A program made the position numbers and the translations under genes. From assembly GCA_963706575.1 (NCBI GenBank), contig CAVPNL010000008.1, positions 128,001 to 192,000 of the forward strand: a DNA stretch of 64,000 nt. Direction: 5' to 3'. Origin of the DNA: an uncultured delta proteobacterium. GTDB taxonomy: Bacteria; Desulfobacterota; Desulfobacteria; Desulfobacterales; JAHEIW01. The notes beneath the pieces were generated by a model, which did no database searches, was not told where the DNA came from, and saw only the letters and a list, made by a program, of their open reading frames with translations. This document shows positions 20,070-37,063 of the stretch, piece by piece. Each line of letters opens with the position of its first letter. Within the stretch, counting starts at the first letter, position 1.

Positions 20070-21704
20070 TCAGATGTTATCATCGCTGCCGTCATCCAGC
20101 AAAACGTTTTTAAGTCGGTCGATTTCTTTTGAGACCGCTTTTTCGATGGTCTGCGTAACGATGGATTCGATTTTATCGGAAAAATTGTTCAGAATGATCC
20201 GTTCGATTGATTTTTCGATTTGTCCCCGGCTGGCACCTGTTAAGGCGGCTAACGAGCCATCCGCCGGCGGCTCCCCGGAGGGTTCAACATCAGTGGTCTC
20301 AATATCTTCTTCGTCGGTGTCATCGCCGGTTTCAGATACATCCGACCCGATCACCTCTGCTTCTGATTCAGCATCTTCATTGAACTCGGCCTCTGCTTCT
20401 GATTCATCGAAAAAAGTGGTTTGCAGCCGGTCGATTTTTTCTGAAATTTCATCGGTGTCATCGCCGGTCTCAGATACAGCCGATCCGATCGCCTCTGCTT
20501 CTGATTCAGCATCTTCATCGAATTCGGCCTCTGCTTCTGATTCATCGAAAAAAGTGGTTTGCAGCCGGTCGATTTTTTCTGAAATTTCATCGGTGTCGTC
20601 GCCGGTCTCTGATACAGCCGATCCGATCGCCTCTGCTTCTGGTTCAGCATCTTCGTCGAGCTCGGCCTCTGCTTCTGATTCATCGAAAAAAGTGGTTTGC
20701 AGCCGGTCGATTTTTTCTGAAATTTCATCGGTGTCGTCGCCGGCCTCTGATACAGCCGATCCGATCGCCTCTGCATCTGGTTCAGCATCTTCGTCGAGCT
20801 TGGCCTCTGCTTCTGATTCATCGAAAAAAATGGTTTGCAGCCCGTCGATTTTTTCTGAAATTTCACTTGAATCCATTTCAAAATCAAATTCTTCCGTACC
20901 GGATGACGCAGCTGTCATATTTATATCCGATTCGCCTTCAACTTCCAGGGCGTTTGTTAAATCATCTTCGAAATTATCATCGATTCGAATTTCTTCACCT
21001 AATGAATCATTGATGAAGTCTTCAAGTTCAGCATCTTCAACATCAGCACCGGGACCGTCAAACTGGATGATATCGTCTTCGATTTCTTCACGCACGGTTT
21101 CATCAGCCATTTCCGGGACGCTGTCTTCTTCTGTTAGGCTGTCTTCCTCCACGTCAATCAATTCCAGAAATTCTTCGTCGGATTCCAATTCCTCACCGAC
21201 ATCGGAGAGGGTCATCAACTCATTACTGTCTTCGGATAAGATGTCGTCAAATTCAGTGATCTCTACCACTTCATTGTCAGCATTGGCTTTCAGGGGTTCT
21301 TCTTCGTCCACCAGTGGCAGCATTTCAGTCTGGTCTTCGTCTTCTTCCTCAAATGGAAGTTTGTCAGCCAGATGGTCGACGTTTTCCTTATCTTCATCCT
21401 CCTCCTCAAATACAAGGTCATCGACCAGATGGTCGACGTTTTTTGCAACATCGACTTCTTCGCCGAAGACATCCAGGCCGCTGATTGTATCTGCAGCCGG
21501 TTCATCCGCCTGTATGTCTTCATTCACTTGATCATCTTGGTCGATTCCTGTCATTTTTGCCTTTGGCGGAGGCTTGACCTCGTCTTTGAGCTCGATAATG
21601 TCATCATCATCATCGGAGCCCTGATTCAAAGCCTCGCTCAGGTCAAGCTTCAGCTTTTTATCAGATTCTGGTTTTTGCGGAGGCGTTTTCTCGTTTTCAT
21701 CCAT
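20070..21704 (-). CDS. Highly acidic, probably disordered protein with 4 x 46-aa repeats and a short C-terminal helical domain
   Basis: D/E-rich; DDIIEL at N-terminus; IESIVTQTIEKAVSKEIDRLK at C-terminus. Confidence 0.8.
   Translation of the reverse strand: MDENEKTPPQKPESDKKLKLDLSEALNQGSDDDDDIIELKDEVKPPPKAKMTGIDQDDQVNEDIQADEPAADTISGLDVFGEEVDVAKNVDHLVDDLVFEEEDEDKENVDHLADKLPFEEEDEDQTEMLPLVDEEEPLKANADNEVVEITEFDDILSEDSNELMTLSDVGEELESDEEFLELIDVEEDSLTEEDSVPEMADETVREEIEDDIIQFDGPGADVEDAELEDFINDSLGEEIRIDDNFEDDLTNALEVEGESDINMTAASSGTEEFDFEMDSSEISEKIDGLQTIFFDESEAEAKLDEDAEPDAEAIGSAVSEAGDDTDEISEKIDRLQTTFFDESEAEAELDEDAEPEAEAIGSAVSETGDDTDEISEKIDRLQTTFFDESEAEAEFDEDAESEAEAIGSAVSETGDDTDEISEKIDRLQTTFFDESEAEAEFNEDAESEAEVIGSDVSETGDDTDEEDIETTDVEPSGEPPADGSLAALTGASRGQIEKSIERIILNNFSDKIESIVTQTIEKAVSKEIDRLKNVLLDDGSDDNI
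20313..20864 (-). repeat. Four near-identical 138-bp coding tandem repeats
   Basis: GATTTTTTCTGAAATTTC recurs at 20433, 20571, 20709 and 20847. Confidence 0.95.
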
Positions 21705-21871
21705 ATTTTCACCGTGGTTAAAAAAAGTTAAAGGTAGCCGCTAAGCTACCAAAGCACTATTATTTTTAAGAAAATTATCATATGGTATAGTTTAAGTCAA
21801 GTTATTTGGGCGGGAGGCAATCTCCGGCAGGCCTTAAAAATAGAGCGTTTTTGCAACTAAAGGATGGATTT

Positions 21872-22616
21872 ATGCGCTATTTTTTTGTTGACTCCAAGGC
21901 ACTAAACATGCCCTTTGCTGCCATTGAGGGCTCCGAGGTGCGCCACATGAAAAATGTGCTACGCTTAAAACCGGGTGATAAGATCCGCGTGTTTGACGGC
22001 GAGGGATTTGAATATGATGCCAGCATACACCGATTTTTCGCCGATCGGGTTGAGATCAAGATTACGCACAAATTCCAGGGAACGAAAGAATCGCCTGTCC
22101 AAATCGGGGTGGCACAGGCGCTGTTGAAAGAAAAGAAAATGGATCGACTGTTGCGTCATCTCTGTGAGCTCGGTGTGACCCGATGGATCCCCTTTATTTC
22201 CGAGCGTTCCGTGCCCAGACCCGGCGAAAAACGGTTATCTGCCCGTACCCAAAGATGGAACAAGATCGTTCAGGAATCCTGCAAGCAATGTCGGCGGTCG
22301 AAGTTGCCCGAGATCATCAAGACCCTGACTTTTGAAGACGTTTTGGGCTATGGTTCATCCTGTGATCTGCAAATTGTCTTTTATGAGAATGAATCCGCTA
22401 CGCTCAAATCACTCATAAAACCCGATCCGCAGTCTGCCTCCCCGCAAGATTCTTTTGATTCTGGGGCCGGAGGGTGGTTTTTCCGATCAGGAAATCGAAA
22501 ATGCCCGGGCGGCCGGCTGTGTGGTCGCCGGATTGGGTTCCCGGATCCTGCGCGCTGAAACCGCTGCAATTGCCGCCTGCACGCTGATACAATTTCTATA
22601 CGGAGATATGGCCTAG
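21872..22616 (+). pseudogene. rsmE: 16S rRNA m3U1498 methyltransferase with an apparent frameshift near 22440 (possible sequence error)
   Basis: HMKNVLRL..ELGV..QCRR in frame 1; LILGPEGGFS..RILRAETAA..GDMA-TAG in the +1 frame after TCCCCG. Confidence 0.85.
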
Positions 22617-22759
22617 AAGTGGTTTCAGAATTCCAGATCAGGTTCAAGGGCAAGGCGTCAGGCCGGACGGGAAAGCGCAGCATACGTGGGTATGTGAGCA
22701 TTTACCGGAGGCCTGCAACGCAGCCATTGGGCCTTAGATGGGATTTTGAAACTACTTTA
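22614..22759. mobile_element. Hairpin MITE, family A copy 2; left TA lies in the rsmE stop codon, right TIR degenerate
   Basis: Same core as 8977 and 58842. Confidence 0.85.
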
Positions 22760-22839
22760 AAAATATCTTGACAAAGAAGGGTGCATTTAATAAAAATTCC
22801 ATTTTGAATTTAAGCTGAAAAATCAGTAAGATTCAAAGA

Positions 22840-22915
22840 GCCGAGGTAGCTCAGTCGGTAGAGCAGGGGACTGAAAATCCCCGTGTCGGCAGTTCGATTC
22901 TGTCCCTCGGCACCA
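22840..22915 (+). tRNA. tRNA-Phe (GAA)
   Basis: GCCGAGG..GGGGA-CTGAAAA-TCCCC..GTTCGATTC..CCTCGGC-ACCA cloverleaf, 76 nt; TTGACA upstream at 22768. Confidence 0.98.
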
Positions 22916-22922
22916 GGATTTC

Positions 22923-22956
22923 AGGCACTTACGAAACCATCGTAGGTGCCTTTTTT
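22923..22956 (+). terminator. Intrinsic terminator after tRNA-Phe
   Basis: AGGCACTTACGA-AACCA-TCGTAGGTGCCT then T run. Confidence 0.8.
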
Positions 22957-23266
22957 CGTTTAAAGGAGTCTATAAACGGGCACAATTCAGACTGCGTGCT
23001 AATTTAACCTAATGATATCACGCTAAAATTTGTTGAAGACAGGGGGATTTTCACTCTCCGTGCCTATGACTAGAGCAGCGTTTGAACCAGTATAGTGATT
23101 ACTAAGGAGGCTAGATCATTTCACCAAAAATTTATGATTATGATGGAAGGTGAAAAGAACTAAAATGAGATAGTTGAATCGGTGCCCTTTTGGAAGAATT
23201 TTTGATTTCCTCAATTCTCGGATGAGGCGGTCATAACGGATTCGTTAAACTGTTTATAATCTGAAT

Positions 23267-24214
23267 TTATACACTCACTTTTTTTTGAAGTAGCTTTGAA
23301 AAATCGTAGGTTCCGAGCCCCCGCTTCTTGGCCAATTTGATATACCCAATATTCTGCGGTTCTTTGCCAAAAAGCAAAGCCGCTTTGCCATCCGCAGCGA
23401 CCGGATCATCGCTTAAAATAAGCGTATTTTTTGTGACGACATCAGATGTGCTTCCACCTGAAGGACCATTTCTTGTTATGATTCGAGTGGCATCTATCAG
23501 TGTTATGGTAGGTTTGAAAAATTGGGCCAGATCAACAATATTTGGATGTATTTCTCTGTGGAGCGAACCGCGCCTTCCGCCAATCGCACCGAACCAATTC
23601 TTCATACCGAGTGTCAGGGAACTCAGGATGTGATCCTTGGCAACCGGCAGGTTGATGACCTTATCCGCCTCAATTATGGGCAAATAAACCGGCCAGACAT
23701 CCAGGCGATCCCCCTGCAGCTTCATCTCGCGCATTAAAGATGAATCGGGATTGATGAGTTCCGCTCCGGTTTTTTTTGCTACATCTGCTGCACCAGATAC
23801 AGAAAAACAGAATTTCGCATTTTCAATGGTATTATCAGCGATTCGGACCTTTTTGGCGCCCGCTTCCTGACAAAGCTCGATGACTGCCTGCAATACTTCC
23901 GGATTTGTGGTGGCAGCCATTTTCGGCGGTCTGGCCCAGGAGATATTCGGTTTGATGACCACCACATCACCTTTCGATACAAATTGCCTTATTCCTCCGG
24001 CAGCTTCAAAGACTTTTTGGGTCAGATCTTTGACGGAAAAATTATCTGTTTGACCGATGCCCTCGATAATAAATTTTTGGTTTGCGACCGTGGCCCTTGC
24101 CGCAGGCAATTCAAATAATGGCCAGCGGGCCATACCGGCAAGTGTGATGCACCCGGACCATTTCAAAAGCTTGCGAATTGATTCTCTGCGCGTAATCGGT
24201 TGATCAAATTTCAT
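23267..24214 (-). CDS. DUF362-family protein with twin-arginine-like signal
   Basis: TRRESI; VVIKPNISW, TTNPEV, INLPVAKDH, TLGMKNWFG, DPVAAD. Confidence 0.85.
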   Translation of the reverse strand: MKFDQPITRRESIRKLLKWSGCITLAGMARWPLFELPAARATVANQKFIIEGIGQTDNFSVKDLTQKVFEAAGGIRQFVSKGDVVVIKPNISWARPPKMAATTNPEVLQAVIELCQEAGAKKVRIADNTIENAKFCFSVSGAADVAKKTGAELINPDSSLMREMKLQGDRLDVWPVYLPIIEADKVINLPVAKDHILSSLTLGMKNWFGAIGGRRGSLHREIHPNIVDLAQFFKPTITLIDATRIITRNGPSGGSTSDVVTKNTLILSDDPVAADGKAALLFGKEPQNIGYIKLAKKRGLGTYDFSKLLQKKVSV

Positions 24215-24358
24215 GGATTTCACCTCTTTCCCCAATCACTTCATACGCGGATCGGGATGATTTGATGAGCGCAATAAACCTTTTTAAATCCCCTTAATTT
24301 TGCCACAAAAGCGGCTAACAAACAGCAGACCACCGCATGTCTTTTCGCTAAATTGGGA

Positions 24359-25237
24359 TTATAGCAATAACTCGTGTTTCCAGCCATAATGTTGAATTTG
24401 AATTTGCTCCATCCGGCTGGTCCCCAATCCATAGACTTTATCAGCGGCTTCCACACAAATCGGCGGAGGAGAAAGGGGCCATGGCTCACCTCGGATGACT
24501 TTCCTTTTTTCAGTAATAATTTTTAAACAAACCGTTTCGACGGCAACCGGATCGGTCCCGGCGATGAAACCATTGTAATTCCATTGGTATCTTGGATCAG
24601 GCTGCGGTCCCTTGTCACAGAGCGGATAAAGCGAATCCACCAGAACCAGTTTTGTCTTGCCTTTGACAAACGGAAGGTTCCAGATTTCTCCTAACTTGGA
24701 ACTGTTACTTTTATGATAATTGCTGGGGCTGCCGGAATACATGATGTAGTTCTTTAGAACCGTGCCGATCCCGGTCAACCAGTGTGCTTTCAGCCCCGGA
24801 ATCGCAATTAAAGCGTCACATTTTTTGGCATTCCGCGAGCCCTGTGCATCTCGAATCCTGTCTTCAGGGATTCCGGAGTCCATCAATGAATTTTTGACAA
24901 CATGCATGACTTCATCATGCGTTGGATTCAGATGATCGGTGGGCACCAGGCCAATCACATCAGTCGGTTTGACAAGGCTTAACCAGGCATCCTTTGTATT
25001 CTTTTGACCTGTAACTTTGGTCAATGTTTCGGTAAGCATTTTCTCCAGGACGGTGATGTCTATATTTTTTGCAGAATCCATGGCGTTTTTATCGCGTACG
25101 ATGGTCACTAAACTTGCGCCCGCAGCTCTTGCTTCTCCCTTGGGCCACTGAAAACCGAAAACAGACGCACCGAGGGTCACTCCGATGGTTCCCCGGATAA
25201 AATCCCTTCTGGTTATGACCGGCATTTTATCTTTCAT
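24359..25237 (-). CDS. DUF362-like protein with twin-arginine signal
   Basis: TRRDFIRG; PGLKAHWLTGIG.VLKNY; DPVAVE..YGLG. Confidence 0.75.
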   Translation of the reverse strand: MKDKMPVITRRDFIRGTIGVTLGASVFGFQWPKGEARAAGASLVTIVRDKNAMDSAKNIDITVLEKMLTETLTKVTGQKNTKDAWLSLVKPTDVIGLVPTDHLNPTHDEVMHVVKNSLMDSGIPEDRIRDAQGSRNAKKCDALIAIPGLKAHWLTGIGTVLKNYIMYSGSPSNYHKSNSSKLGEIWNLPFVKGKTKLVLVDSLYPLCDKGPQPDPRYQWNYNGFIAGTDPVAVETVCLKIITEKRKVIRGEPWPLSPPPICVEAADKVYGLGTSRMEQIQIQHYGWKHELLL

Positions 25238-26253
25238 GATCCCTCTCCTTTCTTCAGTAAATTGGATTCATTTTTTTGAAGGATTACCCTGGCAGATTCC
25301 GGGTCAGGACATTCAAACACGATCGCAATATATTTGCCGAACAGTTTATATGCCAACCAGCCGTCCTCCAGTTTAAAAAGACTTGGGTTGTCAGCGGCTG
25401 TGTCGACCGTTGTTTTTTTCTTATACTCCGGTAGATAGGCATCATGAAAACGATTCAGGGCCTGACGCGCACGTTCAGGTTTTTCATATTGCACCAGCAG
25501 AAACTGACTGCGTTTTGGGTCTCCCGAGCCAGGAATGTGTTCATAGGGCGCAATAACGGCTTCTGCTGAGAGATCGAGATCGAGAATATTTTCATGACTG
25601 AGGTAATAAATTGAATTTATCACCAGATGGGAACGAAAAAAGCTCAATCTGTCTACCCGTAATTCCCAAACGGCGTTAATCGCAAGGGGTAGTATTTTTA
25701 CGAGTGCCGGCTCTGGTGGATACTGAGTATTGGCAGCTATTGCCTTACCGAGTGCAAGGACCGCTTCCTTTGATGCCGGCGTCTCACGTTCGGCCATAAT
25801 TCGGATATAAATATAATCAGACCATAACCTCAACAGGCCACCACCATAGAGCGCCCGGGTGGATGCTGTAAAGGATTGGTTTGATATAGCTGCAGGGGCG
25901 CCGTCAAAGGATACCGCCTCACCGCCCCAATCCAGGGAAAGCAAGCCAAACGCATCGTCGGGGCTTTCCATAAAATATAATTCCACCAGAATATTACCCT
26001 GGTCAGCAGAAGTATAATCAAAAACCTCAAGATGACGGAATCGATAGCCCAAATAGAGTTCACCGGCGCCATTCATGTATTTAAAAATGTTCTTTGAGTT
26101 AATAATTCGAGGCGATTCAGGTCTATTCCAAACGCCAACAGTTTTGGGAAGATTGGGTTTGTCCACATTCATTTTGCCAGATGCTCCCCCGCAGATGACG
26201 ATCGTCATCGTGATTGTTAGAAGGACGAAAGTTATTTTCAGAAAAAATTTCAT
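25234..26253 (-). CDS. Exported conserved hypothetical protein (DUF6599-like)
   Basis: Signal peptide; IFKYMNGAGELYLGY, VELYFMESPDDAFG. Confidence 0.65.
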   Translation of the reverse strand: MKFFLKITFVLLTITMTIVICGGASGKMNVDKPNLPKTVGVWNRPESPRIINSKNIFKYMNGAGELYLGYRFRHLEVFDYTSADQGNILVELYFMESPDDAFGLLSLDWGGEAVSFDGAPAAISNQSFTASTRALYGGGLLRLWSDYIYIRIMAERETPASKEAVLALGKAIAANTQYPPEPALVKILPLAINAVWELRVDRLSFFRSHLVINSIYYLSHENILDLDLSAEAVIAPYEHIPGSGDPKRSQFLLVQYEKPERARQALNRFHDAYLPEYKKKTTVDTAADNPSLFKLEDGWLAYKLFGKYIAIVFECPDPESARVILQKNESNLLKKGEGS

Positions 26254-26579
26254 TATGGGCACTATTTTTATTTTAGTATTTCAGTTGCCTGCTTGGAGGC
26301 AGTCCGAGCTGCCAAGGGTTGCATTACTCATACCCGCGATTCTGGCAATCGATGAAATGTCAAAACCCTTTTTATTTTTATTGTCAACCATAATAACCCA
26401 AAATAAGCTGATTTCTGGGGTGTTCAAGTCAGGTAAAACAAATGAAATTGTGCCCAAACTGTGCCCGTCAAGGTCAAATATTTCCAAACAGTTCCAAACG
26501 AAACCAAAAATACGATTAAAAATTTAAATAGAATCAACTAGTTGTAATCACGACATTTTTTAATTTTCAAAAATTTGGT

Positions 26580-26621
26580 CTGAAAATCCCCGTGTCGGCA
26601 GTTCGAATCTTCCATAGCACC
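26580..26621 (+). repeat. att-like copy 1 of the tRNA-Phe 3' half (27 bp exact, then degenerate)
   Basis: CTGAAAATCCCCGTGTCGGCAGTTCGA-atcttccata-GCACC. Confidence 0.9.
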
Positions 26622-26969
26622 TGAATGAAAAATTTCATATTTTCCTCTTTAGAAGATATAACTGATTGAATATTACCCTTTGGCCAACCAGGGTACAGAA
26701 TTTAACGTTTCTGGTGCTGATATTGAAAATTTTAAATCATATGTGGCCGGAAGTATCGCTGATATGCACTCTCTTTTGCTTGACGTGGGCTTATATGGCA
26801 GTTGTATCAGGTTTGCCGGCAACCGTTGCACCCGTTGGACTGAGCCAATGAGGTCTTCCAGCAGGTATTCAGATTATTGGGGCCAGATTCGAGGATAGGA
26901 CAACCATAGCCTTAGCTCAAGGTTTGGTGAGCTGATAGGTGGTTTCGTGCCTCCGCCAGGTTATGATAA

Positions 26970-27164
26970 TTAGCTCGGATAATCTTTATCAATGCCATTG
27001 AGCTGTCGAGAAAGCATTCGGCAGGCATAGGCCCGAGAGCCTTGGATATCCTCCACGTCGCTTCGGCTTTGTCCATTGGCGCCGATCGGTTTCTGATGCT
27101 CGATGACAGACAAACCCAGATAGCCGCACTTGCCGGGTTGAAATTAGAAAGTATTAAGAAATGA
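26970..27164 (+). pseudogene. 3' fragment of a VapC/PIN-domain toxin gene
   Basis: Manual translation AIELSRKHSAGIGPRALDILHVASALSIGADRFLMLDDRQTQIAALAGLK; in-frame TAA at 26967, no ATG at its 5' end. Confidence 0.7.
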
Positions 27165-27812
27165 TGTATTCTCCGGAGGCGCATTAACACTTTTTATTCT
27201 GGCTTATCCGACAACCGCCAGAGTTAATGGCGACTTGTCCATTTCCGGCCCGAAGTTTCGTTTTGAGCACCCGAATCGTCGTACTCCGGCCCGGGCTTTC
27301 AAGAACGCAATGAGAAAAGGGGTCGAAAAGAAGTCAAGTCTTCGGTTGATTTTTCCCAAATGTCTAATCCCCCGTTCAGCTTGAATGCTGGCCAACACAA
27401 CAAAAGTCAACCGAAGACTTGAGCCGTAATCTGACCCGCAATCCGTAATCCTAATCTCTGGAGTGGGTGCTGCTTGAGCGGTTGGCGTAAAGCATTTGTA
27501 TCGATTTCCCCCTAAAAAAATGTTGATTTTCCTTTTTGGCTGCTGTATGGAACCTTCTGGATCGACGGCTTTTTTTACCAACAAGACCGTAAAGCTCAGC
27601 TCTTCACTTCCATCAAATTCTTCCAACGCGCTAAGCGCCGCCGATCGAAGTTCTTGACCGTCTTAAGGTGATAAGGGCGGGGCGCGCCCTTTGCTCAAAA
27701 CTGAATACTCATTTTCAGTCGCATACTGAGCTCCAAACGCTATGCATTCAGAACGATCTTTTTCCATCTGCTTCGTTTGCTGTTTTTCTCATACCGGAAA
27801 AAGGAAAATGCC

Positions 27813-30125
27813 ATGAAATCGGAAGAGGTATTATGTTGCGTCTGTGAAAAATCTTTCAGATGGATGAATGCCTACCGGTGTCAATATACCCCAGGCTCAG
27901 AGAAATATAATCCCCCCGGAACAGGGGACTATCGTCCACGGGCTTTTTGCCCACACTGCGGTGCGCTCGTGGCTCAGTGGCATGTCACGGCGAGCCGTGA
28001 CTTCAACGAGTGGTTGTGGTATGGACCCAACGACCGGGGAAACCGGGAATCTCCCCTGCCGCCCTCACCTTCGGCCGATGACTGGGGCCGTCCTATCCCG
28101 AATCCTTTCGTTCCCTCCATTCACCATAATGAAATAGAGTTAGACCAAATTAAGACCTTTACCGGGAAAGAAGTCTATCCTGCTGATGACGGGATGCGAG
28201 CAGCGGAGGATCGGGACAAATCGGTGCCTCAAACCACGCTTGCCGAGGAGGATGCCCCACCGCTGACGGAATCAGTCTCCGCTGAGGACCCCAGTCTGGT
28301 TGAGGAAGAGGGTGTATCAACCATCGGTGATGCCACCTTGGTCAAGGAAGGAACCTCCTCCGAAACGTTAGATTCCGACAGCATGCGGTTTCAGGAGGCG
28401 AGGCGGCCGATCAAGCCTCCCCGGGTTGACTCAGGTGTGAGTGAAAAAAAACTTACGCGAAAGCTGACCGCACTTCTCAGCGCCGATGTCAAGGGCTACA
28501 GCACGCTCATGGAGGAGGACGAGATTTCAACCGTTCAGATGCTGGTCGACTATCGTAATATCATGGCGGGACTCATTCGGCAATTCAGAGGCCGGGTGGT
28601 TGATTCCGTGGGAGACAACCTTCTGGCTGAATTCGCCAGCGTTGTGGATGCGGTCCAGTGTGCTGTTGAGATCCAGCAGGTGCTGACGGCAAAAAACGAG
28701 CTGCTGTCGCCTAACCGCCGGATGGAGTTTCGAATAGGGGTGAATCTGGGGGACGTGATCGAAGAAGAGGATCGAATTTACGGAGAAGGAGTAAATATCG
28801 CAGCCAGGGTCGAATCTTTTGCCAACCCGGGAGGGATCTGCATTTCCGGCAGCGCCTTCGAGCAGATCGAAAACAAACTATCTTTGGACTATGTCTACAT
28901 CGGGGAGCACAAAGTCAAAAACATCCGCAAGCCGGTCAAAATCTACCGCGCCCAGCTCGGCCATGGGCCGTCCGCTGATGTCGCCCGCATCGAAAAGCAG
29001 GACAAAAAAATCCGCCCCGGGCTTCTCGCACTGTCAGGGGTTTTATTTCTGGTGGCTGGCGGCATGACGTGGCATTTTTTCTTGCGTCCGCCGGCCTCCC
29101 AGATCCGATCGTCCGGTGTCAAGGAAAGCGTTTCGGTGAGCCCCCCAAAGACGGCCCCTGCTGAAAAAAAACAGACCTTGACAAAACCTTCGGAGATCTC
29201 GGCGCCCAACATCAGACCGGATAAGAAACGATTGACCGCAGTGGCCAAAAGCCCGGTATCGACGGGGATAGCAGACCCTGACTGGCAACTTATTCTGCAG
29301 GAGCTGGCCCAAAAGTTGCCGAACCTGTCTTCGGAAACCTATTTATTTTCCACCCGGGAAAAAGCACTGCGAAATGCCAGAATGATTGCGCTGACCCTCG
29401 TTGGGCCGAATCTTGGCGAGCTAAAGAAGAAGTTTGAGGAAAAGGGGTTCCGGGTCGCCATCATTCCCCAGTCGGAAATTGACAGAGCCCTTGAGACTTT
29501 GATCGTTGACGGCGTCGTCACCGCTTCGAAGGAGCTGACTGAAAAGCTCAAACGGGATTTTCAGGGAGGAATCGCGGTCCGATTGCATCCTGAACTCAGC
29601 ATAATGGACGAGAAAGCAGAGGGCAATGTATTAGACGGGTTGATATTCGCCGACCGGATCGAGGTGGATTTTGCACCGGACTGGGACCCCGACATCTGGT
29701 GGGCAGGAAAAGTCGTCGAGCAGCATACCAAAGAACAGCATCTGGCAAGCCTGGCTACATGGGGAGACAGGAGCTTCCGGAAGCATGTTGACCGAGATAC
29801 GAATCAGACCTCCGATATCCGCGTCATTTTTAAGGATGTCCCCTATGTGGACGATTTCTACGTGGTCATCTGCCCGCCCAAGGGGGGCGGATTCTACCAC
29901 GGTCAATGGTTTGTTGGGGACAAGCTGTTTCTGGACCGGCAATCCTATCAAAGCCATAAATTCCGAACGCCTGAATGTTTCAGGGTTCCAGCCTCCGCCA
30001 TCAACCATCAGCGTCAGGCGATCGTTCACGCTCGGGGTTTCAGAGGACTGTATGTTAATATTGCGGAAATCTTCTTATCCGACCGGGTGCTGGATGCCGC
30101 GGACATGGATACTCTGATGCAATGA
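27813..30125 (+). CDS. Class III adenylate/guanylate cyclase domain protein with N-terminal Cys motifs, one TM helix and an unknown C-terminal domain
   Basis: LSADVKGYS, VGDNLLAEF, RIGVNLGDV, GEGVNIAARVE; TM LLALSGVLFLVAGGMTWHFF. Confidence 0.85.
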   Translation: MKSEEVLCCVCEKSFRWMNAYRCQYTPGSEKYNPPGTGDYRPRAFCPHCGALVAQWHVTASRDFNEWLWYGPNDRGNRESPLPPSPSADDWGRPIPNPFVPSIHHNEIELDQIKTFTGKEVYPADDGMRAAEDRDKSVPQTTLAEEDAPPLTESVSAEDPSLVEEEGVSTIGDATLVKEGTSSETLDSDSMRFQEARRPIKPPRVDSGVSEKKLTRKLTALLSADVKGYSTLMEEDEISTVQMLVDYRNIMAGLIRQFRGRVVDSVGDNLLAEFASVVDAVQCAVEIQQVLTAKNELLSPNRRMEFRIGVNLGDVIEEEDRIYGEGVNIAARVESFANPGGICISGSAFEQIENKLSLDYVYIGEHKVKNIRKPVKIYRAQLGHGPSADVARIEKQDKKIRPGLLALSGVLFLVAGGMTWHFFLRPPASQIRSSGVKESVSVSPPKTAPAEKKQTLTKPSEISAPNIRPDKKRLTAVAKSPVSTGIADPDWQLILQELAQKLPNLSSETYLFSTREKALRNARMIALTLVGPNLGELKKKFEEKGFRVAIIPQSEIDRALETLIVDGVVTASKELTEKLKRDFQGGIAVRLHPELSIMDEKAEGNVLDGLIFADRIEVDFAPDWDPDIWWAGKVVEQHTKEQHLASLATWGDRSFRKHVDRDTNQTSDIRVIFKDVPYVDDFYVVICPPKGGGFYHGQWFVGDKLFLDRQSYQSHKFRTPECFRVPASAINHQRQAIVHARGFRGLYVNIAEIFLSDRVLDAADMDTLMQ

Positions 30126-30233
30126 ACCGACGGTCCGTCGATGCGCCCGGTACCCAGAGACAATCCAGCCGTACTGGCGGTCGGTCGAAATCGAATACAA
30201 GAACAATTGCGATAAGACTGGTTGGAGGTTGAC

Positions 30234-31469
30234 ATGATTTGCCAGAACTGCCTGCAGGAGCTACCCGATGATGCGGCTCTTTGTGTCGGTTGCGGAAAAA
30301 TTATCGAAGCCGACCAAAGCCCCAAAGTCAAAATCCCGGGCCGCAAAATGCGGCTCTTTCTCTATCTGGGCGTCTACTTTTTTTTCTTTTTTCTGTTTTT
30401 TTTCTTCTTGGCGACCAGCGGCGGCGACAAGATCGTGCAGGTTCTGGCCGTCCTTTCGCTTGCATGTGCGGTGATCGTCATCTGGGCGGCTTTTTTCAGG
30501 GGCTGGTCGGCCATCAACGACGGATATGCCCGCACCACTCCTGGTAGAGCGATCCTGTTCCTTTTGGTGCCGCTGGTAAACCTCTTCTGGATGTTTCAGG
30601 CATTCGCTGGATACCCGACGGATTACAATCTCTATCTCAGGCGCCACCAGCTGTCGGCGCCCACCCTCGGCAGGACCTGGTTCATCCTGCTTTGTGTTGT
30701 GTTTCTCATCAACACCGGCATGGCCCGGTTGCCGGAACCTTTGTTTCAGCTCATCGGCATTCTGGTAACGATGGCTATCGGCGTCATCGTGCTGACCAAA
30801 ATATGCAAGGCTGTCAACCGGTTGCCGGACGGTTTGCACAACGTTTCGCCGGCTCGGACCGATCTCGGGCCAATCGGGCAGTTTTTCAATAAACTCACCG
30901 CCCTCAGACTTCCGAGGTGGGCGTCGATCCTTGTGGTCGCTGCTGGTATCATCGTGATTTTAGGGATCGCCGCAGATCGCATTGCCCAGAATCAACGGAT
31001 CAGCAGGTTCAAATCGGCGGCACTGGAAACGGCCGAACACTATGGACCGTTGCTGGCTGCCGCGATCGCAGGTTCCGACCATTACTTATCCGGTCGACCG
31101 TCCCGCCAGCTCCACGAACTCATGAAAGAAATCCTCCAGAGAGGCTTCACCTATGCCATTCTGTACATGCCCGTGACGTCTTCGGAGGAATTTTTATGGC
31201 GGTACCAGGGTGTCGGACATTATATGAGCTATGAAAAGGACTCCCCTCAAATAACAAGTTGGGCTGGAGTAAAAAGGGTTCCTGTAAAAAACGAGATGGA
31301 GCGAGCCATCCACAGGGCCCTAAGCGGCGACAACACCTCCATCAACGAAATCAACCGCCGTTCAAGAGCAACTTTTCATTCTGTCATTGTAGGGAAAAGC
31401 GGCCAGCCGCTGGCGGTGCTGCGCCTCGTGATCTACGGAAGAGGTGGTACCGAGAGAGACATCATATAA
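30234..31469 (+). CDS. Zinc-ribbon multi-pass membrane protein
   Basis: GGAGG RBS; CQNC..CVGCG; several TM segments incl. TTPGRAILFLLVPLVNLFW. Confidence 0.75.
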   Translation: MICQNCLQELPDDAALCVGCGKIIEADQSPKVKIPGRKMRLFLYLGVYFFFFFLFFFFLATSGGDKIVQVLAVLSLACAVIVIWAAFFRGWSAINDGYARTTPGRAILFLLVPLVNLFWMFQAFAGYPTDYNLYLRRHQLSAPTLGRTWFILLCVVFLINTGMARLPEPLFQLIGILVTMAIGVIVLTKICKAVNRLPDGLHNVSPARTDLGPIGQFFNKLTALRLPRWASILVVAAGIIVILGIAADRIAQNQRISRFKSAALETAEHYGPLLAAAIAGSDHYLSGRPSRQLHELMKEILQRGFTYAILYMPVTSSEEFLWRYQGVGHYMSYEKDSPQITSWAGVKRVPVKNEMERAIHRALSGDNTSINEINRRSRATFHSVIVGKSGQPLAVLRLVIYGRGGTERDII

Positions 31470-31489
31470 TGGGCCTCGCGCGACCCCCC

Positions 31490-31620
31490 TCATTCATAAT
31501 GTGACATCAAAGCATTTTTCAGGGATTTGTACTCTTCGTAGGTAATAGCGCCGGCATCTTTGGCTTTTTTCAGGTCGATCAGCTTCTGCCACAGCGTCGG
31601 AGATTTGCCCAGCAGCTCGC
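31490..31620 (-). pseudogene. SHOCT-domain gene remnant
   Basis: PTLWQKLIDLKKAKDAGAITYEEYKSLK; the upstream part of the ORF runs into att-arm repeats. Confidence 0.55.
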
Positions 31621-31784
31621 CGCTGAATACACATCGTGGATCTTTGAAGTTGTGTGGGGATTGTGTGGGGAAAATTGTCCAAAATCTGCTAAAGTGTGGA
31701 AAATCAGCCAAAATGTGGAAAATACGGATTCAATGATTTCAGTAAGTTATGTTACATTAGGAGGTTAGGAAGCTCAGGGTTATT

Positions 31785-31831
31785 GACTGAAAATCCCCGT
31801 GTCGGCAGTTCGATTCTGTCCCTCGGCACCA
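31785..31831 (+). repeat. att-like copy 2 of the tRNA-Phe 3' half (47 bp exact)
   Basis: GACTGAAAATCCCC...CTCGGCACCA, followed by a terminator hairpin at 31838..31874. Confidence 0.95.
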
Positions 31832-31903
31832 TATAATAAAGGATACGAAGCATAAGCTTGGTATCCTTTTTTTTGATCAAATGAAGATAACGCCAACCGG
31901 AAT

Positions 31904-32251
31904 TCAACCATCCAATCCGGAGCGAATATTTTTTAAAATTGCTTTGAAAGCTGGAAGGTCTTTTTTAAGAATTTGCCAGACTATTTGCAGGTCGACACCA
32001 AAATATTCATGCACAATTCGATTACGCAAACCGATAATTTTTATCCATTCGATCTCTGAATGGCGATCGGTGAAATCCTTTGGCAAACGACTAGCAGCTT
32101 CACCAATTATCTCAAGATTCCGAACTACCGCATCGATTGTTTTTTCATCATTTTGAAAACGATTCTGGGTCATGCCTTCAGTATAACGTTCAATTTTTTC
32201 GATTGATTCCCAAATATCTTCAACCAAAAGTTCCAGAGATCTTTTAGACAT
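31904..32251 (-). CDS. HEPN/DUF86 RNase toxin (HepT-like)
   Basis: AVVRNLEIIGEA, RNRIVHEY (RX4HXY). Confidence 0.92.
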   Translation of the reverse strand: MSKRSLELLVEDIWESIEKIERYTEGMTQNRFQNDEKTIDAVVRNLEIIGEAASRLPKDFTDRHSEIEWIKIIGLRNRIVHEYFGVDLQIVWQILKKDLPAFKAILKNIRSGLDG

Positions 32252-32549
32252 AGATTAGATCCTGCTCAATGTATTTCAATTTGTTCGGTTTTATTGCGCG
32301 CCGGGAAACCAATTCAACTGGGAGTCCCAACAATTGCTCAATTTGTTCGGCGAGGGTCACAAAATCAAGACCCACTGATGGATCAATATCCACTAAAATG
32401 TCCACATCACTATCAAATCGCTGATCACCACGTGCATATGACCCAAAAAGGGCCATTCTGCGTACTTTGAATCTGTTTTCCAGATTAGATTTATTCTGAG
32501 ACAAGAGACTTAGGATTTCCTCTCGGGTTTTTTCGGGCATTTTTTTCAC
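32244..32549 (-). CDS. Minimal nucleotidyltransferase antitoxin (MntA-like)
   Basis: LFGSYARGDQRFDSDVD (GSX10DXD); overlaps the toxin start. Confidence 0.92.
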   Translation of the reverse strand: MKKMPEKTREEILSLLSQNKSNLENRFKVRRMALFGSYARGDQRFDSDVDILVDIDPSVGLDFVTLAEQIEQLLGLPVELVSRRAIKPNKLKYIEQDLIYV

Positions 32550-32784
32550 AGTTTGTTCGGAATTGTAATGTATATCAAAAATTTAAACTCATTGTCTTGA
32601 TAATATGCATAATACTGTTTATCGCAGTTTTGGTCAAATGTTAATAGGATCAAGTGTGTCCAAATTGTGCCCGTCAAGGTCAAAGTTTTCCAAATAGTTC
32701 CAAACGACGCCAAAAATAGCTAAAAAATGGGAATAGAAACAACTGCTTGTAATTAAAGCATTTCCAAATTTTTAAAAATTTCGG

Positions 32785-32829
32785 CTGAAAATCCCCGTGT
32801 CGGCAGTTCGATTCTGTCCCTCGGCACCA
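32785..32829 (+). repeat. att-like copy 3 of the tRNA-Phe 3' half (45 bp exact)
   Basis: CTGAAAATCCCC...CTCGGCACCA, followed by a terminator hairpin at 32836..32873. Confidence 0.95.
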
Positions 32830-32964
32830 TAATGCAAAGCTCCAGAGACATTTCTCCGGAGCTTTTTCTTTTTGGTATGCACATTTTAGATGGTGGGTCT
32901 TGAACCGTTCATTTTAGCCCCCAAAAGGGCCGTTTAAGGCTAAAACTAAAGCAAGAAAAGAAAT

Positions 32965-33984
32965 TTGCCGATGAATTATATTATGTCGGAAAAATTAGGG
33001 CAGCAAAAAATAAAAGCATTTGGAATCGTCTCAGGCCTGGGCGTCATTCTCTATTTGCTGCGCAAAGCAATTCCAATTCTGCAGAATGTACATCCTGCCG
33101 TATTTGGATTTATCTTCGTTGTTGGTGCGTGTATATTATTTAATTTTCTGGGGCAAAAGCAATTTGGACCGACGAAAAAGAAGAAATTCAATCTCTCCGA
33201 ACAGATACCGGGTCTCTTAATTTTTTCGGTCGTATTGTTAATTGTAATCGGCGTTGCGACCAAAAGCAAAGTGGTTTTAATTATCGCTTTTGGATCTTTC
33301 CTGCCCGTGTGGTTTTATCTTGCCATCACCACTTATTTCAAACCCCTGGCAAGAACAAAAAAAGCCATCAAAGAATTCAGCGCAAAAATGGGCATACAAA
33401 TGATCAAAAAGCCCACAGCGACCACACGGTTTTCGGAAATATTCTACACCGATCTGGGGAAGATACCCTTTGATAATGTAACGAATATTATTGATATCAA
33501 CCCTAATCTTACGATTTTCTGTAACGCCTATAGTCTCCCGAATCCTAACATAAAAGGTAAGTACCTTCCTCTGGAAAACCAATTGTGCTTTAGGTTTACG
33601 ATTCCTCCGTGTTCAGGTTATCATAGAATTCTTCTGCGAAATGATATGACCACTACTGCTGGAGGCTTTTCTATCGCTACGTCTGGTGGATCAGCCTCAA
33701 TCGTGCAAATAAACATTCCGGATTTTGCTGAAAATTATATTGTTTTGTCAAAATCTGAATCTGAAATTAAGGAAATCATATCCAGGATTCATTATGTATT
33801 GAGGAAATTAGTCGATATATTTCCAAACAAAGGCCAGATTTTTCTTCTCGATAATATCCCCGCCAATCTTGATATTCATATTACCCGTAACGAGATTCTA
33901 GCTCGGATTCCCTATCAGCAAGGATGGCTTATAAATCGTCTACATCTTTCATTCAAAGAAATCCAATCTATCTTATCTAGCTAA
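32965..33984 (+). CDS. Hypothetical membrane protein (about 4 N-terminal TM helices), AT-rich
   Basis: 339-codon ORF with hydrophobic N-terminal third; start uncertain. Confidence 0.65.
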   Translation: MPMNYIMSEKLGQQKIKAFGIVSGLGVILYLLRKAIPILQNVHPAVFGFIFVVGACILFNFLGQKQFGPTKKKKFNLSEQIPGLLIFSVVLLIVIGVATKSKVVLIIAFGSFLPVWFYLAITTYFKPLARTKKAIKEFSAKMGIQMIKKPTATTRFSEIFYTDLGKIPFDNVTNIIDINPNLTIFCNAYSLPNPNIKGKYLPLENQLCFRFTIPPCSGYHRILLRNDMTTTAGGFSIATSGGSASIVQINIPDFAENYIVLSKSESEIKEIISRIHYVLRKLVDIFPNKGQIFLLDNIPANLDIHITRNEILARIPYQQGWLINRLHLSFKEIQSILSS

Positions 33985-34015
33985 GACTATATCGTGTCAA
34001 ATTCCAAACTTTTCT

Positions 34016-35935
34016 TCACTTATAGTATCCACGCTGTTCAAGGTCTTGCCTGACATCATGGAGATCCAGCCTTTCCAATTCTTTCTTCCCCGGGATTCCC
34101 TTATAGTTCCAGCCCCTTAATTTATAGTAGCTTGAAATCATTTTATTAAACTTTTTGCGGTCAAGCTTGACGTCCGGCGGCGCCGGTGTTTCATGAAAGA
34201 ATTTCTGCGGGATCTTGATGTCAGCTCTCCGGCTAATGCCTCTTCTTACATTGTAGGCCCGGGTAAGCGCATTTATTCTTTTGGCAATCGTTATGGCGCC
34301 GGCTTCATCGAGGTCCATGCCGGTGGCATAAGACATAAGATTGATCTGATCATCCACGCTGATGGGAGGGTAAAGCCAGAACCCCGTCCAAAAGATGCAA
34401 ACGCCGGACGAATCCGCGATCGCGTTGGTGTCCACGTCGCGGGACGTGAACGGGACCATCTTTTCATAGTCAAGGCCCAGGCCCACATATGCTTCGACAA
34501 ACGGTTTTTCAAACTCTTTCGGATAGTGGAAGTAACCTGCCTTTACATAATCTTGTTTCCATTTCGGCGTATTCTCCATTGCCCATAACACGGCACTGCT
34601 TTCGGCTCTGGTCATATCCAGCCTGTCGGTAACGGCCGTCCGAAGGGCACGATAAGGATTGGAAGGCTGAAACGCGATCATTTCCAGTTTCTTAATGTGA
34701 TAGGCGTGTTTTCTCGCGCCTCTCCCGATCTGTCTGGCAGCTTCATAGACCCCATCGGCTAGGATATCTCCGATTCCTTCTCTCCCGGCGATCTTGCCGA
34801 TAAGCGAAAGCGCCAGATCCTGATTTTCCCATTCCAGATCTTCCCCACCGGTATCCGCTTTGGTCAAAATGCCTCTTTCAAAAAGGTCTATTGCAAAAGC
34901 AATGTTGCATGCGGTTGAAATCGTGTCCAATCCGTATTTTTCACACAGGTTGGTACATCTGGCATTGAAAAGAAGATCACGTGTCTTCACGGCAAACATG
35001 AACGAAAACCATGACTGACATTTCACGGAACAATATTCGCCTTCAGGGAGTGATATGTTCACCTTGCATGCGAGGGCACAATTGTAACAGCTATCTGTTC
35101 GCGCACCGAATTCCTCTACGAAATCCTCATGATGCTCTCCCGCATTGTCGAACGGGCGTCTCTGACCCAAATTGCCCCAGGCCCAGTTGTTCATGAACCA
35201 TTCATGGGTTTCAAAAGCGATTCTGTCAAAATACGCTCTTATCCCGTCCGTCTTTTTGAGGATATGTTCACACAGGTCATGAAACTCAGCTGGCCGGGCA
35301 ATATGGATATCTTTTGTCCCGTGGACGGCAATGGCTTTTAATTTCTTGTCTCCCATAACGGCGCCCACACCGGCTCGACTCGCACCGGTGCCGGAGCCAT
35401 GTTCGATTGTTGCCGCGAGGACCCGGTTCTCCCCAGCCTGGCCGATACTCAGAACTTGAGCTCCGTTCTGCTTCAGCTCGTCCCGGATGATTTTCGTGGT
35501 TTCCCTGATATCTTTGCCCCAGAGATGGGCGGCGTCACGGATCTCTGCTCTGTCATCGTTAATCCAGAGGTATACCGGTTTTGAAGACTTCCCCGAGATG
35601 ATAAGGTTATCGTACCCGGCCTGTTTTAGCTGCGCTCCCCAGAAGCCGCCCAGACTGGAATAGGTTTGAAGATTCGTCTGGGGCGAAAGGGTGGTGAGTA
35701 TCGTTCGATTCGCGCCCGGGGCGGGGGTGCCGCTAAGGACGCCGACACCGAATATCATGAGATTGTCGGGAGAATACGGATCTGTCTCCGGCGGGACCCG
35801 ATCCCAGAATAATTTGGTATTGGTTCCCCGCCCGCCGAGATACATTTCCCTGGCAGTCGTATCTACCGCTGTCTTGGAACTTATCCCTGTGGACAGGTCG
35901 ATTTCCAGATTTGTGCCTACCCAGCCGTAATCCAC
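34016..35935 (-). CDS. Aldehyde:ferredoxin oxidoreductase family (tungstopterin) enzyme
   Basis: YLGGRG, GGFWGAQLKQAGYD, SIGQAGE, R.GVGAVMGDKKLKAI, CYNCALAC, GLDTIS, YYKLRGW. Confidence 0.92.
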   Translation of the reverse strand: MDYGWVGTNLEIDLSTGISSKTAVDTTAREMYLGGRGTNTKLFWDRVPPETDPYSPDNLMIFGVGVLSGTPAPGANRTILTTLSPQTNLQTYSSLGGFWGAQLKQAGYDNLIISGKSSKPVYLWINDDRAEIRDAAHLWGKDIRETTKIIRDELKQNGAQVLSIGQAGENRVLAATIEHGSGTGASRAGVGAVMGDKKLKAIAVHGTKDIHIARPAEFHDLCEHILKKTDGIRAYFDRIAFETHEWFMNNWAWGNLGQRRPFDNAGEHHEDFVEEFGARTDSCYNCALACKVNISLPEGEYCSVKCQSWFSFMFAVKTRDLLFNARCTNLCEKYGLDTISTACNIAFAIDLFERGILTKADTGGEDLEWENQDLALSLIGKIAGREGIGDILADGVYEAARQIGRGARKHAYHIKKLEMIAFQPSNPYRALRTAVTDRLDMTRAESSAVLWAMENTPKWKQDYVKAGYFHYPKEFEKPFVEAYVGLGLDYEKMVPFTSRDVDTNAIADSSGVCIFWTGFWLYPPISVDDQINLMSYATGMDLDEAGAITIAKRINALTRAYNVRRGISRRADIKIPQKFFHETPAPPDVKLDRKKFNKMISSYYKLRGWNYKGIPGKKELERLDLHDVRQDLEQRGYYK

Positions 35936-36243
35936 TTTCCTTTACTCCCATTCCTTTGTTCTTGTCCGCTCATTTACACCGTCGCCCCGATGTGCCACGG
36001 AACAAACTCATTTTCAAAAGCAATCTTAAATGATTGGGGCCTGCCGGTACACTCGACAATAGCATCGGCCAAATTCAACCAGTCGTCTAAATCCAGTCCG
36101 TGTTCGATGCATTACCAGTTTAAATCTCAGAAATCGATCGGTCAAGGCGCATAACAAAGCGATCGTGATTCTTTGATCCTTATTTATGGTTGACCGAAAT
36201 TTTTAATTTTTCTTCAGAGGAAAGAAGAAACTTTCGGAAATAC

Positions 36244-36272
36244 TTGACTGTTTTTTTTGCGTCGCGTATTAT
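36244..36272 (+). promoter_or_regulatory. Sigma70-type promoter for the IHF gene
   Basis: TTGACT-N17-TATTAT. Confidence 0.55.
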
Positions 36273-36337
36273 TAACAATATCAAGGTGATGTCAGCGAGG
36301 CAAATCACAGTTCGAAAATCTTTATATCCGGGGAGAC

Positions 36338-36616
36338 ATGATGAATAAACTGGAACTTATTGACATGTTAAAAAATGAATGCCGACTCTCAAAGAAGGAA
36401 GCTGCAGCGGTTGTTGATCTATTTTTCGACAGAATGTCTGAAGCGCTTGCAAAGGGTGAGCGGGTTGAAATTCGCGGATTATGCTCTTTCTATGTTAAAG
36501 AATACCGATCCTACCAGGGCAGAAACCCCAAAACCGGCGAAAGCGTCCGGGTAGCGCCTAAAAAGCTGCCCTTTTTCAAAAGTGGTAAGGAATTAAAAGA
36601 ACGGGTAGATTATTGA
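36338..36616 (+). CDS. ihfB: Integration host factor beta / HU-family protein
   Basis: MNKLELI, ERVEIRGL.SF, GRNPKTGE, PFFKSGKELKERV. Confidence 0.85.
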   Translation: MMNKLELIDMLKNECRLSKKEAAAVVDLFFDRMSEALAKGERVEIRGLCSFYVKEYRSYQGRNPKTGESVRVAPKKLPFFKSGKELKERVDY

Positions 36617-36655
36617 CCGGTTGATCTTAAGACGCTTGCGGGTTTGTTTTTAATA

Positions 36656-37063
36656 ATGATGCCTTCACAGGATACAATTATTCGCAATAAACTCTTTTCT
36701 CTTAAAAAATCCAAATTCAGGTCAAAATTCAAGCTAAGTCACAAAGAACTCGATTACACTTCCGCCAAAGGGCTCGAGACCATCAAAGCCCATGCATTTG
36801 ATTTTGTAAATTCCAGAGTTGCTCCTGATTTCCCCAAAAATGACGGCAAACAAACACCCATGAGAGGGCATCCGGTCTTTAGCGCCCAGCACGCTACGGC
36901 GACTTGCTGCCGGGGATGCATTCAAAAGTGGCATGGAATTGAAAAGGGCAGGGCGCTGAATGCGGCTGAAATAGATTATGTTGTAGCCTTGATTATGGGA
37001 TGGATTGAGCGGCAGATGAGTGCTAAAAGAGTCAAATCGCATAAAATCGCGCAGGATGGATAA
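36656..37063 (+). CDS. DUF4186-family protein
   Basis: [38 protein letters not shown]. Confidence 0.85.

What the first reader, a model, noticed from the sequence alone, without database searches (positions are those of the whole stretch)
22840..32873. Tandem array of three integrase-less gene cassettes stacked behind tRNA-Phe
Seen: the tRNA 3' half recurs as a direct repeat at 26580, 31785 and 32785, always starting at or just before the anticodon loop (CTGAAAA). This divides the region into cassettes of ~3.7, ~5.2 and ~1.0 kb with unrelated cargo. The tRNA and the two intact copies are each followed by a different terminator hairpin. I find no integrase, relaxase, phage or transposase gene in any cassette or elsewhere in the window. 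Known: tyrosine integrases target tRNA anticodon loops and tandem islands occur, but they normally carry their own integrase. Inference: a tRNA-anchored, integron-like capture array of small non-autonomous elements mobilised in trans. The alternative is heavily decayed islands.
Basis: partly seen in the sequence, partly recalled or inferred. Interest (0 to 1): 0.85.

Follow-up and report, generated by a model that had tools for sequence, protein, structure and literature searches.

The report
Integrase-less island remnants stacked at tRNA-Phe
Three small gene packets sit behind the only phenylalanine tRNA gene of a sulfate-reducer-type bacterium; each keeps the right-hand docking arm of a known kind of integrating element but has no integrase, so they are best read as leftovers that a passing complete element can pick up and drop off, not as a new integron.

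Summary
Observation confirmed: tRNA-Phe (22840-22915) and three 3'-half copies starting at the anticodon loop bound units of 3.7, 5.2 and 1.0 kb with no integrase. Units 1 and 3 share one arm (R1), unit 2 has another (R2). Both arms recur across Desulfobacterota, and each traces to a tyrosine-integrase family whose C-terminus overlaps the same repeats. Complete 10-67-kb elements exist elsewhere, as do intermediates with integrase stubs. Neither integrase is in this genome. R1 elements use eight tRNAs that share a GGA-N7-TCC anticodon stem. Units 2 and 3 have no left arm. Unit 1 is a captured congeneric operon whose att copy is damaged; it is also present, with an independently decayed att, in a relative lacking units 2-3. 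Best reading: tandem accretion of decayed, right-arm-only elements (CIME-like), movable in cis by an incoming helper; not an integron. The scan has reported similar arrays on other DNA (19 findings). New here: the two arm/integrase families and the anticodon-stem target rule.

The parts
22840..22915 (+). tRNA-Phe(GAA), the target; anticodon stem-loop GGGGA-CTGAAAA-TCCCC with the 7-nt loop at 22871-22877 as the inferred crossover region
22923..22951 (+). terminator-like hairpin brought by unit 1's left end
22916..23070 (.). L1 left-end module: one inverted R1-type arm (22977-22986), IHF-like site on the minus strand (23005-23017, 1 mismatch), core-like hairpin (23043-23059) resembling the reversed tRNA-Phe anticodon stem-loop
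   Evidence: conserved in 8 aligned loci, 70% mean column identity, one behind tRNA-Arg(TCG)
23247..26437 (-). unit 1 cargo: DUF6599 (25234-26262), DUF362 with TAT-like signal (24359-25237), DUF362 (23267-24235); an operon captured from ordinary chromosomal context
   Evidence: Pfam; 88-93% identical in G012, G014, G018, G020, G021 with no arm or att beside it in the fetched DNA
26446..26579 (+). R1 right arm: direct arm-type repeats at 26449 and 26460, phased A-tracts, perfect IHF-consensus match 26532-26544
26577..26610 (+). att copy 1, damaged tRNA 3' half without terminator
26970..27164 (+). C-terminal fragment of a PIN (VapC-like) toxin gene
   Evidence: Pfam PIN E 0.011; 75-89% DNA identity to intact 146-aa PIN-like genes in arrays of G476 and G010
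27777..30125 (+). 782-aa membrane protein with adenylate/guanylate-cyclase domain (unit 2 cargo)
   Evidence: Pfam PF00211 E 1.5e-12
30222..31469 (+). 415-aa zinc-ribbon membrane protein (unit 2 cargo)
   Evidence: weak zinc-ribbon hits only
31490..31711 (-). SHOCT-domain gene fragment whose 5' end runs into the R2 arm
   Evidence: Pfam SHOCT E 0.007
31651..31786 (+). R2 right arm of a second integrase family: direct repeats 31651-31659 and 31662-31670, conserved block 31760-31775
31785..31831 (+). att copy 2, intact tRNA 3' half, followed by a hairpin (31838-31872)
31904..32549 (-). unit 3 cargo: MNT antitoxin (32244-32549) and HepT RNase toxin (31904-32251), type VII toxin-antitoxin pair
   Evidence: Pfam; NCBIfam (both just under the curated cut-offs)
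32652..32784 (+). second R1-type right arm (81-83% identical to the first)
32785..32829 (+). att copy 3, intact tRNA 3' half, followed by a hairpin (32836-32865)
32830..34010 (+). probable older fourth remnant: its hairpin recurs as the left end of units in G476, G006 and G004; 339-aa unknown gene, GC 0.38; no right att found
   Evidence: gene shared with relative L442 at 92%

Best explanation
A tandem-accretion island made of decayed derivatives of two families of lambda-type integrative elements. Complete elements carry int (plus a putative xis) next to the tRNA, with left arm repeats inside the int 3' end, and a right arm (repeats, A-tracts, IHF site) about 105 bp before the crossover at the 7-nt anticodon loop. 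They integrate at tRNA-Phe and push earlier residents outward. Residents lose int and usually the left arm but keep right arm + core + tRNA 3' half, an attR half-site. That is all a later cognate element needs: it supplies attL, Int and Xis at the tRNA, can excise to a distal attR and carry the unit along (cis pick-up), and can later excise alone, leaving an integrase-less unit behind. Units 1 and 3 answer to the P0001 family, unit 2 to the R2 family. Here nothing can move at present: no cognate integrase is in the assembly, and excising unit 1 alone would leave the only tRNA-Phe with a broken 3' half. Shown: anatomy, cognate families, decay series, variable content. Inferred: arm/IHF function, crossover position, cis pick-up and drop-off.
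For: Cognate integrase: 30 of 30 top P0001-family loci have a tRNA or tRNA piece beside the int 3' end, nearly all with the same arm repeat; complete elements with int at one end and R1+att at the other: 32.7 kb at tRNA-Phe (G362), 42 kb at tRNA-Leu (G364); R2 equivalent of 67 kb at tRNA-Gln (G215). Decay series: of 22 R1 units bounded by the same tRNA on both sides (24 bounded, 2 dropped for mismatched tRNAs), 1 has a large int remnant, 2 have stubs, 19 none; 14 of 22 lack a left arm by pattern. Right arm is maintained: 90-94% identical to G003 and G476 where rsmE is 63%; identity among 66 unique modules falls to chance (0.26-0.32) just upstream of the first repeat. Neither family in G000. 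Relative L442 has unit 1 (95.6%) with its own decayed att (85% over 48 nt) and lacks units 2-3. The model matches passages on CIME accretion (PMC5704250) and tycheposon islands.
Against: No excision product or composite circle was seen; no run spans the array. In the extra DNA fetched around complete elements I found no complete element followed by integrase-less cognate units (many contigs end early). The counts are biased: loci were found through R1 and had at most 10 kb of flank, so large complete elements are excluded and 37 of 61 att-bearing modules had no upstream boundary in view. High arm identity could also reflect recent spread of complete elements followed by fast decay. All 7 complete L1 units end in R1 and carry 4 different cargo sets, which fits a two-ended unit moved in trans. 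G006's R1 is only modestly better conserved than rsmE (82.6 vs 75.4%).
Confidence: 0.6

Rival explanations
1. Dedicated non-autonomous elements mobilised in trans: L1 (inverted arm, IHF-like site) and R1 are the two working ends of a reusable chassis that captures cargo and is excised and integrated by P0001-family integrases from elements at other tRNAs. The whole 9.9-kb L1...att3 span could be one such composite.
For: 7 of 7 complete L1 units end in R1 and hold 4 cargo sets; L1 is conserved and occurs at tRNA-Phe and tRNA-Arg; its arm sits about 62 bp behind the tRNA end, as the direct left arms of complete elements do. In the host family, P0001-family genes lie at tRNA-Leu or tRNA-Arg in 10 of 12 loci checked and at tRNA-Phe in none. 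G362 has a complete element at tRNA-Phe and six R1 modules without int at tRNA-Leu.
Against: L1's arm is inverted and single in this window; several of the 7 units were found through R1, which is the commonest right arm anyway; units 2 and 3 have no left arm; unit 1 is shared by descent with a decaying att; the host has no cognate integrase.
Confidence: 0.2
2. A graveyard: each unit is the dead stump of a once-complete element; arms persist only because they are young, and nothing moves again except by deletion or RecA recombination between the 165-210-bp R1+att repeats.
For: Damaged att 1, PIN and SHOCT fragments, missing left arms; many truncated integrases and truncated R1 modules without att in relatives (23 of 84 modules had no att in view, some being chance hits or contig ends); one cassette is present twice in the G362 array.
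Against: Cargo abuts the arm within about 9 bp, including an operon that congeners keep without any att; the non-coding arm outlasts rsmE in conservation; an AbiEi/AbiEii-like gene pair (label recalled, not scanned) appears in units at tRNA-Phe and tRNA-Arg.
Confidence: 0.15
3. A true integron-like platform: a fixed tRNA site plus one dedicated recombinase that captures and reorders small cassettes.
For: Small units (0.8-9 kb), toxin-antitoxin cargo, arrays of up to six modules.
Against: No integrase at the site or in the genome; two unrelated arm families in one array and further arm types in relatives; lambda-type arms rather than attC hairpins; displaced att copies decay.
Confidence: 0.05

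Closest known systems
CIMEs and tandem accretion (ICESt1/ICESt3 model; passage in PMC5704250; primary papers Pavlovic 2004 and Bellanger 2011 seen only as reference entries)
   Same: Tandem units at one att site, integration and transfer genes lost, movable with an adjacent complete element
   Different: CIMEs are defined as keeping attL and attR; units 2 and 3 keep only the right arm; two integrase families are mixed; the same arms serve many tRNAs
Tycheposon islands of Prochlorococcus (bioRxiv 10.1101/2020.12.28.424599, passages)
   Same: tRNA-seeded islands, partial tRNAs between elements, transient elements that bring and leave flanking material
   Different: There each tRNA has its own integrase cluster; here one family spans 8-9 tRNAs, with 96%-identical integrases at Arg-TCG and Arg-CCT and 85% at Phe and Leu
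Dehalococcoides ssrA genomic islands (PMC3146451, passages)
   Same: Tandem islands, 15 without integration module, read as cis-mobilisable
   Different: Serine recombinase, tmRNA target, 20-bp repeats
Islander tDNA islands with anticodon-centred attP (PMC4383910, passages)
   Same: tDNA plus displaced fragment, crossover in the anticodon loop, 5'-fragment cases, frequent target switching in integrase evolution
   Different: Islander requires an integrase in each island, so these units would be filtered out; it lists only 4 tandems of three or more
Integrons (recalled)
   Same: Array of small cargo units, toxin-antitoxin pairs
   Different: No IntI, no attC hairpins, double-stranded arm-dependent sites

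Membership tests
CIME | integration and transfer genes absent | tested here: met
CIME | right att site retained (arm + core + target fragment) | tested here: met
   units 2 and 3 intact; unit 1 arm intact but tRNA half damaged
CIME | left att site retained | tested here: not met
   no cognate left arm in units 2 and 3; only an inverted single arm in unit 1
CIME | derived from a complete element that uses the same site | tested here: met
   complete elements and int-stub intermediates for both arm types
CIME | mobilised in cis by an adjacent element | not testable with these tools
   no reads span the array
Integron | dedicated integron integrase next to the array | tested here: not met
Integron | attC hairpin sites between cassettes | tested here: not met
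   junctions are arm + tRNA 3' half by inspection; no attC model was run
IME/ICE | own integrase and relaxase/oriT or T4SS | tested here: not met
   absent from the units; no relaxase or T4SS Pfam hit among the 50 selected proteins of three complete R1 elements (small ORFs left out, oriT not searched)
Tycheposon | integrase in the element, one integrase cluster per tRNA | tested here: not met
   no integrase; the cognate family changes target at least 12 times on a 30-protein tree
IntDes subgroup (PMC8138268) | Desulfovibrio only; first catalytic His replaced by Tyr | tested here: not met
   P0001 has HDFRR and comes from other Desulfobacterota; the subgroup HMMs were not available

The most novel reading that the evidence does not exclude
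Desulfobacterota share a population-wide cassette chassis: the ~135-bp right arm, with or without the L1 left end, captures ordinary chromosomal operons right at its edge and is moved between at least eight tRNA genes by transient integrases that read only a GGA-N7-TCC anticodon stem, restoring the tRNA in three different geometries. The arrays would then be a maintained gene-exchange system without a resident recombinase.
Probability: 0.25. Interest if true: 0.7.

Novelty: new variant of a known kind. Interest (0 to 1): 0.42.

Why it matters
Island finders that demand an integrase miss these units, yet they are common in sediment sulfate reducers and carry toxin-antitoxin pairs and captured metabolic operons. 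If a right arm alone is enough for pick-up, it explains how clean integrase-less cassettes arise without any integron. The target rule (8 of 9 tRNA types share GGA-N7-TCC) makes integrase target switching directly testable and offers native landing sites for engineering Desulfobacterota.

Tried and rejected
Misassembly: not testable by reads (no run holds half of the words; none spans it), but the repeats are short and the same junction types occur in independent assemblies. P0002, the tyrosine recombinase inside the genome's second array, as R2's integrase: rejected, 0 of 30 family loci have a tRNA or R2 arm within about 1.5 kb. Integrase pseudogenes in the units: none. Structured RNA: Rfam found only the tRNA in 21000-38000. 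Phage origin: the R1 pattern had 0 hits and P0001 no confirmed relative in IMG/VR (the protein search reaches close relatives only). Excision circles: the joint 26502 to 23123 in runs X1 and X8 does not fit a core-to-core circle, and the joint 26512 to 32723 in X7 is explained by the R1 repeat. Sequencing runs with small shares were not used as habitat evidence. L1 as a remnant of the region upstream of xis: similar layout but little sequence likeness, left open. Literature searches for these families or the stem rule returned nothing specific; subscription papers and supplements were not seen.
Full report
Observation. ARAGORN finds tRNA-Phe(GAA) at 22840-22915, the single tRNA-Phe among 43 tRNAs of the 5.67-Mb, 25-contig, 92%-complete assembly. 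Its 3' half recurs at 26577-26610 (94% over 34 nt, then lost), 31785-31831 and 32785-32829 (both 100%). The units are 3664, 5207 and 998 bp. Cargo: two DUF362 genes and DUF6599; a PIN fragment, a cyclase-domain protein, a zinc-ribbon membrane protein and a SHOCT fragment; an MNT-HepT pair. No tyrosine recombinase or remnant lies in the window. Relatives carrying the same arm are mostly labelled Desulfobacterales or other Desulfobacterota.

The ~135 bp before att copies 1 and 3 are homologous (81-83%). This R1 module starts with two direct repeats 11 bp apart, has phased A-tracts and a perfect match to the IHF consensus (consensus recalled), the layout of a lambda-type P arm (recalled knowledge). 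Its repeat is present in 11 of 24 other genomes of the family by the query ranges. Of 84 non-redundant modules, 61 are followed by a tRNA piece, at one fixed offset in 36 of 51 forward cases and within 2 bp of it in 49. Unit 2 ends in a different module, R2, found in 24 of 251 genomes of the order.

Cognate integrases. P0001 (367 aa, PF00589) has homologues at E <= 1e-30 in 63 of 401 genomes of the class. In 30 of 30 top loci its 3' end lies beside a tRNA or tRNA piece, and in nearly all the R1 repeat overlaps the int 3' end (two loci have a variant repeat). Complete elements have int at the tRNA and R1+att at the far end: 32.7 kb (G362, Phe) and 42 kb (G364, Leu); a 10-kb one (G083, Arg) ends in a truncated R1. 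A small HTH-type gene upstream of int is read as xis by eye, not by a family hit. Their cargo is restriction-modification, defence and replication genes, with no relaxase or T4SS hit among 50 selected proteins. R2 traces to a second family (371-438 aa, about 21-27% identical to P0001), with a complete 67-kb element at tRNA-Gln. Neither family is found in this genome. In the host family 12 of 24 genomes have a P0001 hit at 1e-8, ten of them at 45% identity or more; three appear full length; 10 of 12 loci checked lie at tRNA-Leu or tRNA-Arg and none at tRNA-Phe.

Targets. R1 or P0001 occurs at Phe, Leu CAA/TAA/TAG, Arg TCG/TCT/CCT/ACG and once at Lys CTT. Eight of these nine belong to the 11 of 43 tRNAs here with a GGA-N7-TCC stem; hypergeometric P 9.5e-6, which ignores uneven tRNA use by islands in general and relatedness. 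Targets track the trees only partly: 12 changes among 30 integrases against 15-22 in 200 shuffles, and 24 among 59 arms against 27-33 (FastTree; 4 unlabelled arms dropped). Integrases 96% identical sit at Arg-TCG and Arg-CCT, 85% at Phe and Leu; the window's R1 is 88.5% identical to arms at Arg-TCG. The tRNA is restored by a 3' half, by a 5' half in reverse orientation, or by a 5' half on the arm side. R2 is broader: Phe, Arg, Ala, Asn, Thr, Gln.

Decay and retention. Among 22 R1 units bounded by the same tRNA (0.8-9.1 kb; 2 of 24 dropped for mismatched tRNAs), 1 has a large int remnant, 2 have stubs and 19 have none; left arms by pattern: 14 none, 4 direct, 4 inverted (one more direct arm was seen by eye in L136). 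The 10-kb flank excludes large complete elements by design. R1 is 93.9% and 90.2% identical to G003 and G476, where rsmE is 63.5% and 62.6%; for G011 89.4 vs 67.8; for G006 82.6 vs 75.4. Among 66 unique modules identity is at chance upstream of the first repeat and 0.68-0.81 in the 30 bp after the search motif. Unit 1's operon occurs at 88-93% in five congeners with no arm or att in the fetched DNA, and homology ends about 9 bp before the arm: a captured chromosomal operon. A metagenome contig (L442) has unit 1 with the same cargo-arm junction (95.6%), an independently decayed att, no units 2-3, then other genes, the 339-aa gene and ihfB; the contig does not reach the tRNA. Unit 1 is thus probably inherited and fixed; excising it alone would break the only tRNA-Phe (inference). 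Units 2-3 were gained here or lost there. AFOR-ihfB-DUF4186-cyclophilin is syntenic in G013, so the foreign stretch ends near 34 kb.

Mechanism. Inference: complete elements integrate at the anticodon loop and displace residents, which lose int and the left arm. A right arm with core is enough for a later cognate element to excise to that distal site, carry the unit and later leave it behind. This accounts for missing left arms, different terminators, a sharp and conserved right arm and the absent helper (confidence 0.6). Against it: no circle or composite was observed, and 7 of 7 complete L1 units end in R1 with 4 cargo sets, which keeps a two-ended, trans-mobilised unit alive (0.2). Pure decay (0.15) and an integron-like platform (0.05) fit worse.

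Known systems. I read passages, not whole texts, of PMC5704250 (CIME definition and accretion), bioRxiv 10.1101/2020.12.28.424599, PMC4383910, PMC8138268, PMC12884075, PMC3146451 and PMC5812530; no supplements. The array works like CIME accretion but fails the retained-attL test for units 2 and 3, so it is filed as a variant. Target switching by integrases is known (PMC4383910). Seven searches found no description of these two families or of the stem rule in the held library, which lacks most subscription papers. The scan's own notes list 19 similar arrays in other genomes, three elements with P0001-like proteins and no look-alike of this stretch; these are unchecked and not independent support.

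Verdict. A real, ordinary-in-kind accretion array, unusually well resolved, with two apparently undescribed arm/integrase families and a testable target rule. Interest 0.42.

Noticed in passing
G000:C18:112348-105116 (minus strand): Second array in the same genome at tRNA-Arg(TCG): a 6.2-kb unit with R2 arms at both ends and a probably 5'-truncated P0002 recombinase, then a 1-kb MNT-HepT-like unit with no right arm
   Followed up: partly
window 23043-23059; also upstream of R1 in L065, L083, L102, L129 and upstream of the putative xis in G362 and G364: A second core-like GGA-N7-TCC hairpin; in L1 it forms a reversed core-IHF-arm module. Function unexplained (inversion site or Int operator)
   Followed up: partly
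window 26502 to 23123: Contigs of two studies (X1 DNA, X8 RNA library) join part of R1 to the left end of unit 1's cargo; about 79 unknown letters lie between in X8 by subtraction; circle, tandem copy or another context
   Followed up: partly
G362:C1:1071800-1083200 (L274, L275): Six R1 modules without integrase at tRNA-Leu(CAA), one unit present twice, in a genome with a complete R1 element at tRNA-Phe
   Followed up: partly
G083:C44 (L282, L283); L185, L187: Elements in which the displaced piece is the tRNA 5' half; in G083 the intact tRNA-Leu lies at the far end behind a promoter-like sequence
   Followed up: partly
L295-L323: A widespread ~278-aa tyrosine recombinase family (53 of 251 genomes) not linked to tRNAs; role unknown
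   Followed up: partly
G000:C8:221900-238112 (outside the window): Five 20-23-nt copies of the tRNA-Leu(GAG) 3' end and an orphan R2 arm at 223736: a third accretion island
   Followed up: no
L044, L066, L133 att copies: A palindromic insert interrupts the T-loop of displaced tRNA-Phe halves in several genomes
   Followed up: no
window 22614-22760: Repeat-like element between rsmE and the tRNA with very high summed contig depth and many loose ends in sediment runs
   Followed up: no
window 20070-21704: 544-aa acidic protein with five 138-bp tandem repeats; shorter in relatives
   Followed up: no
G000:C15:118432-118505 and C3:141925-142022: The genome has tRNA-Pyl and tRNA-SeC, both with GGA-N7-TCC stems, predicted but unobserved targets
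   Followed up: no
window 27334-27422: 21-nt inverted repeat (95%) in unit 2's non-coding left part; no Rfam match
   Followed up: no
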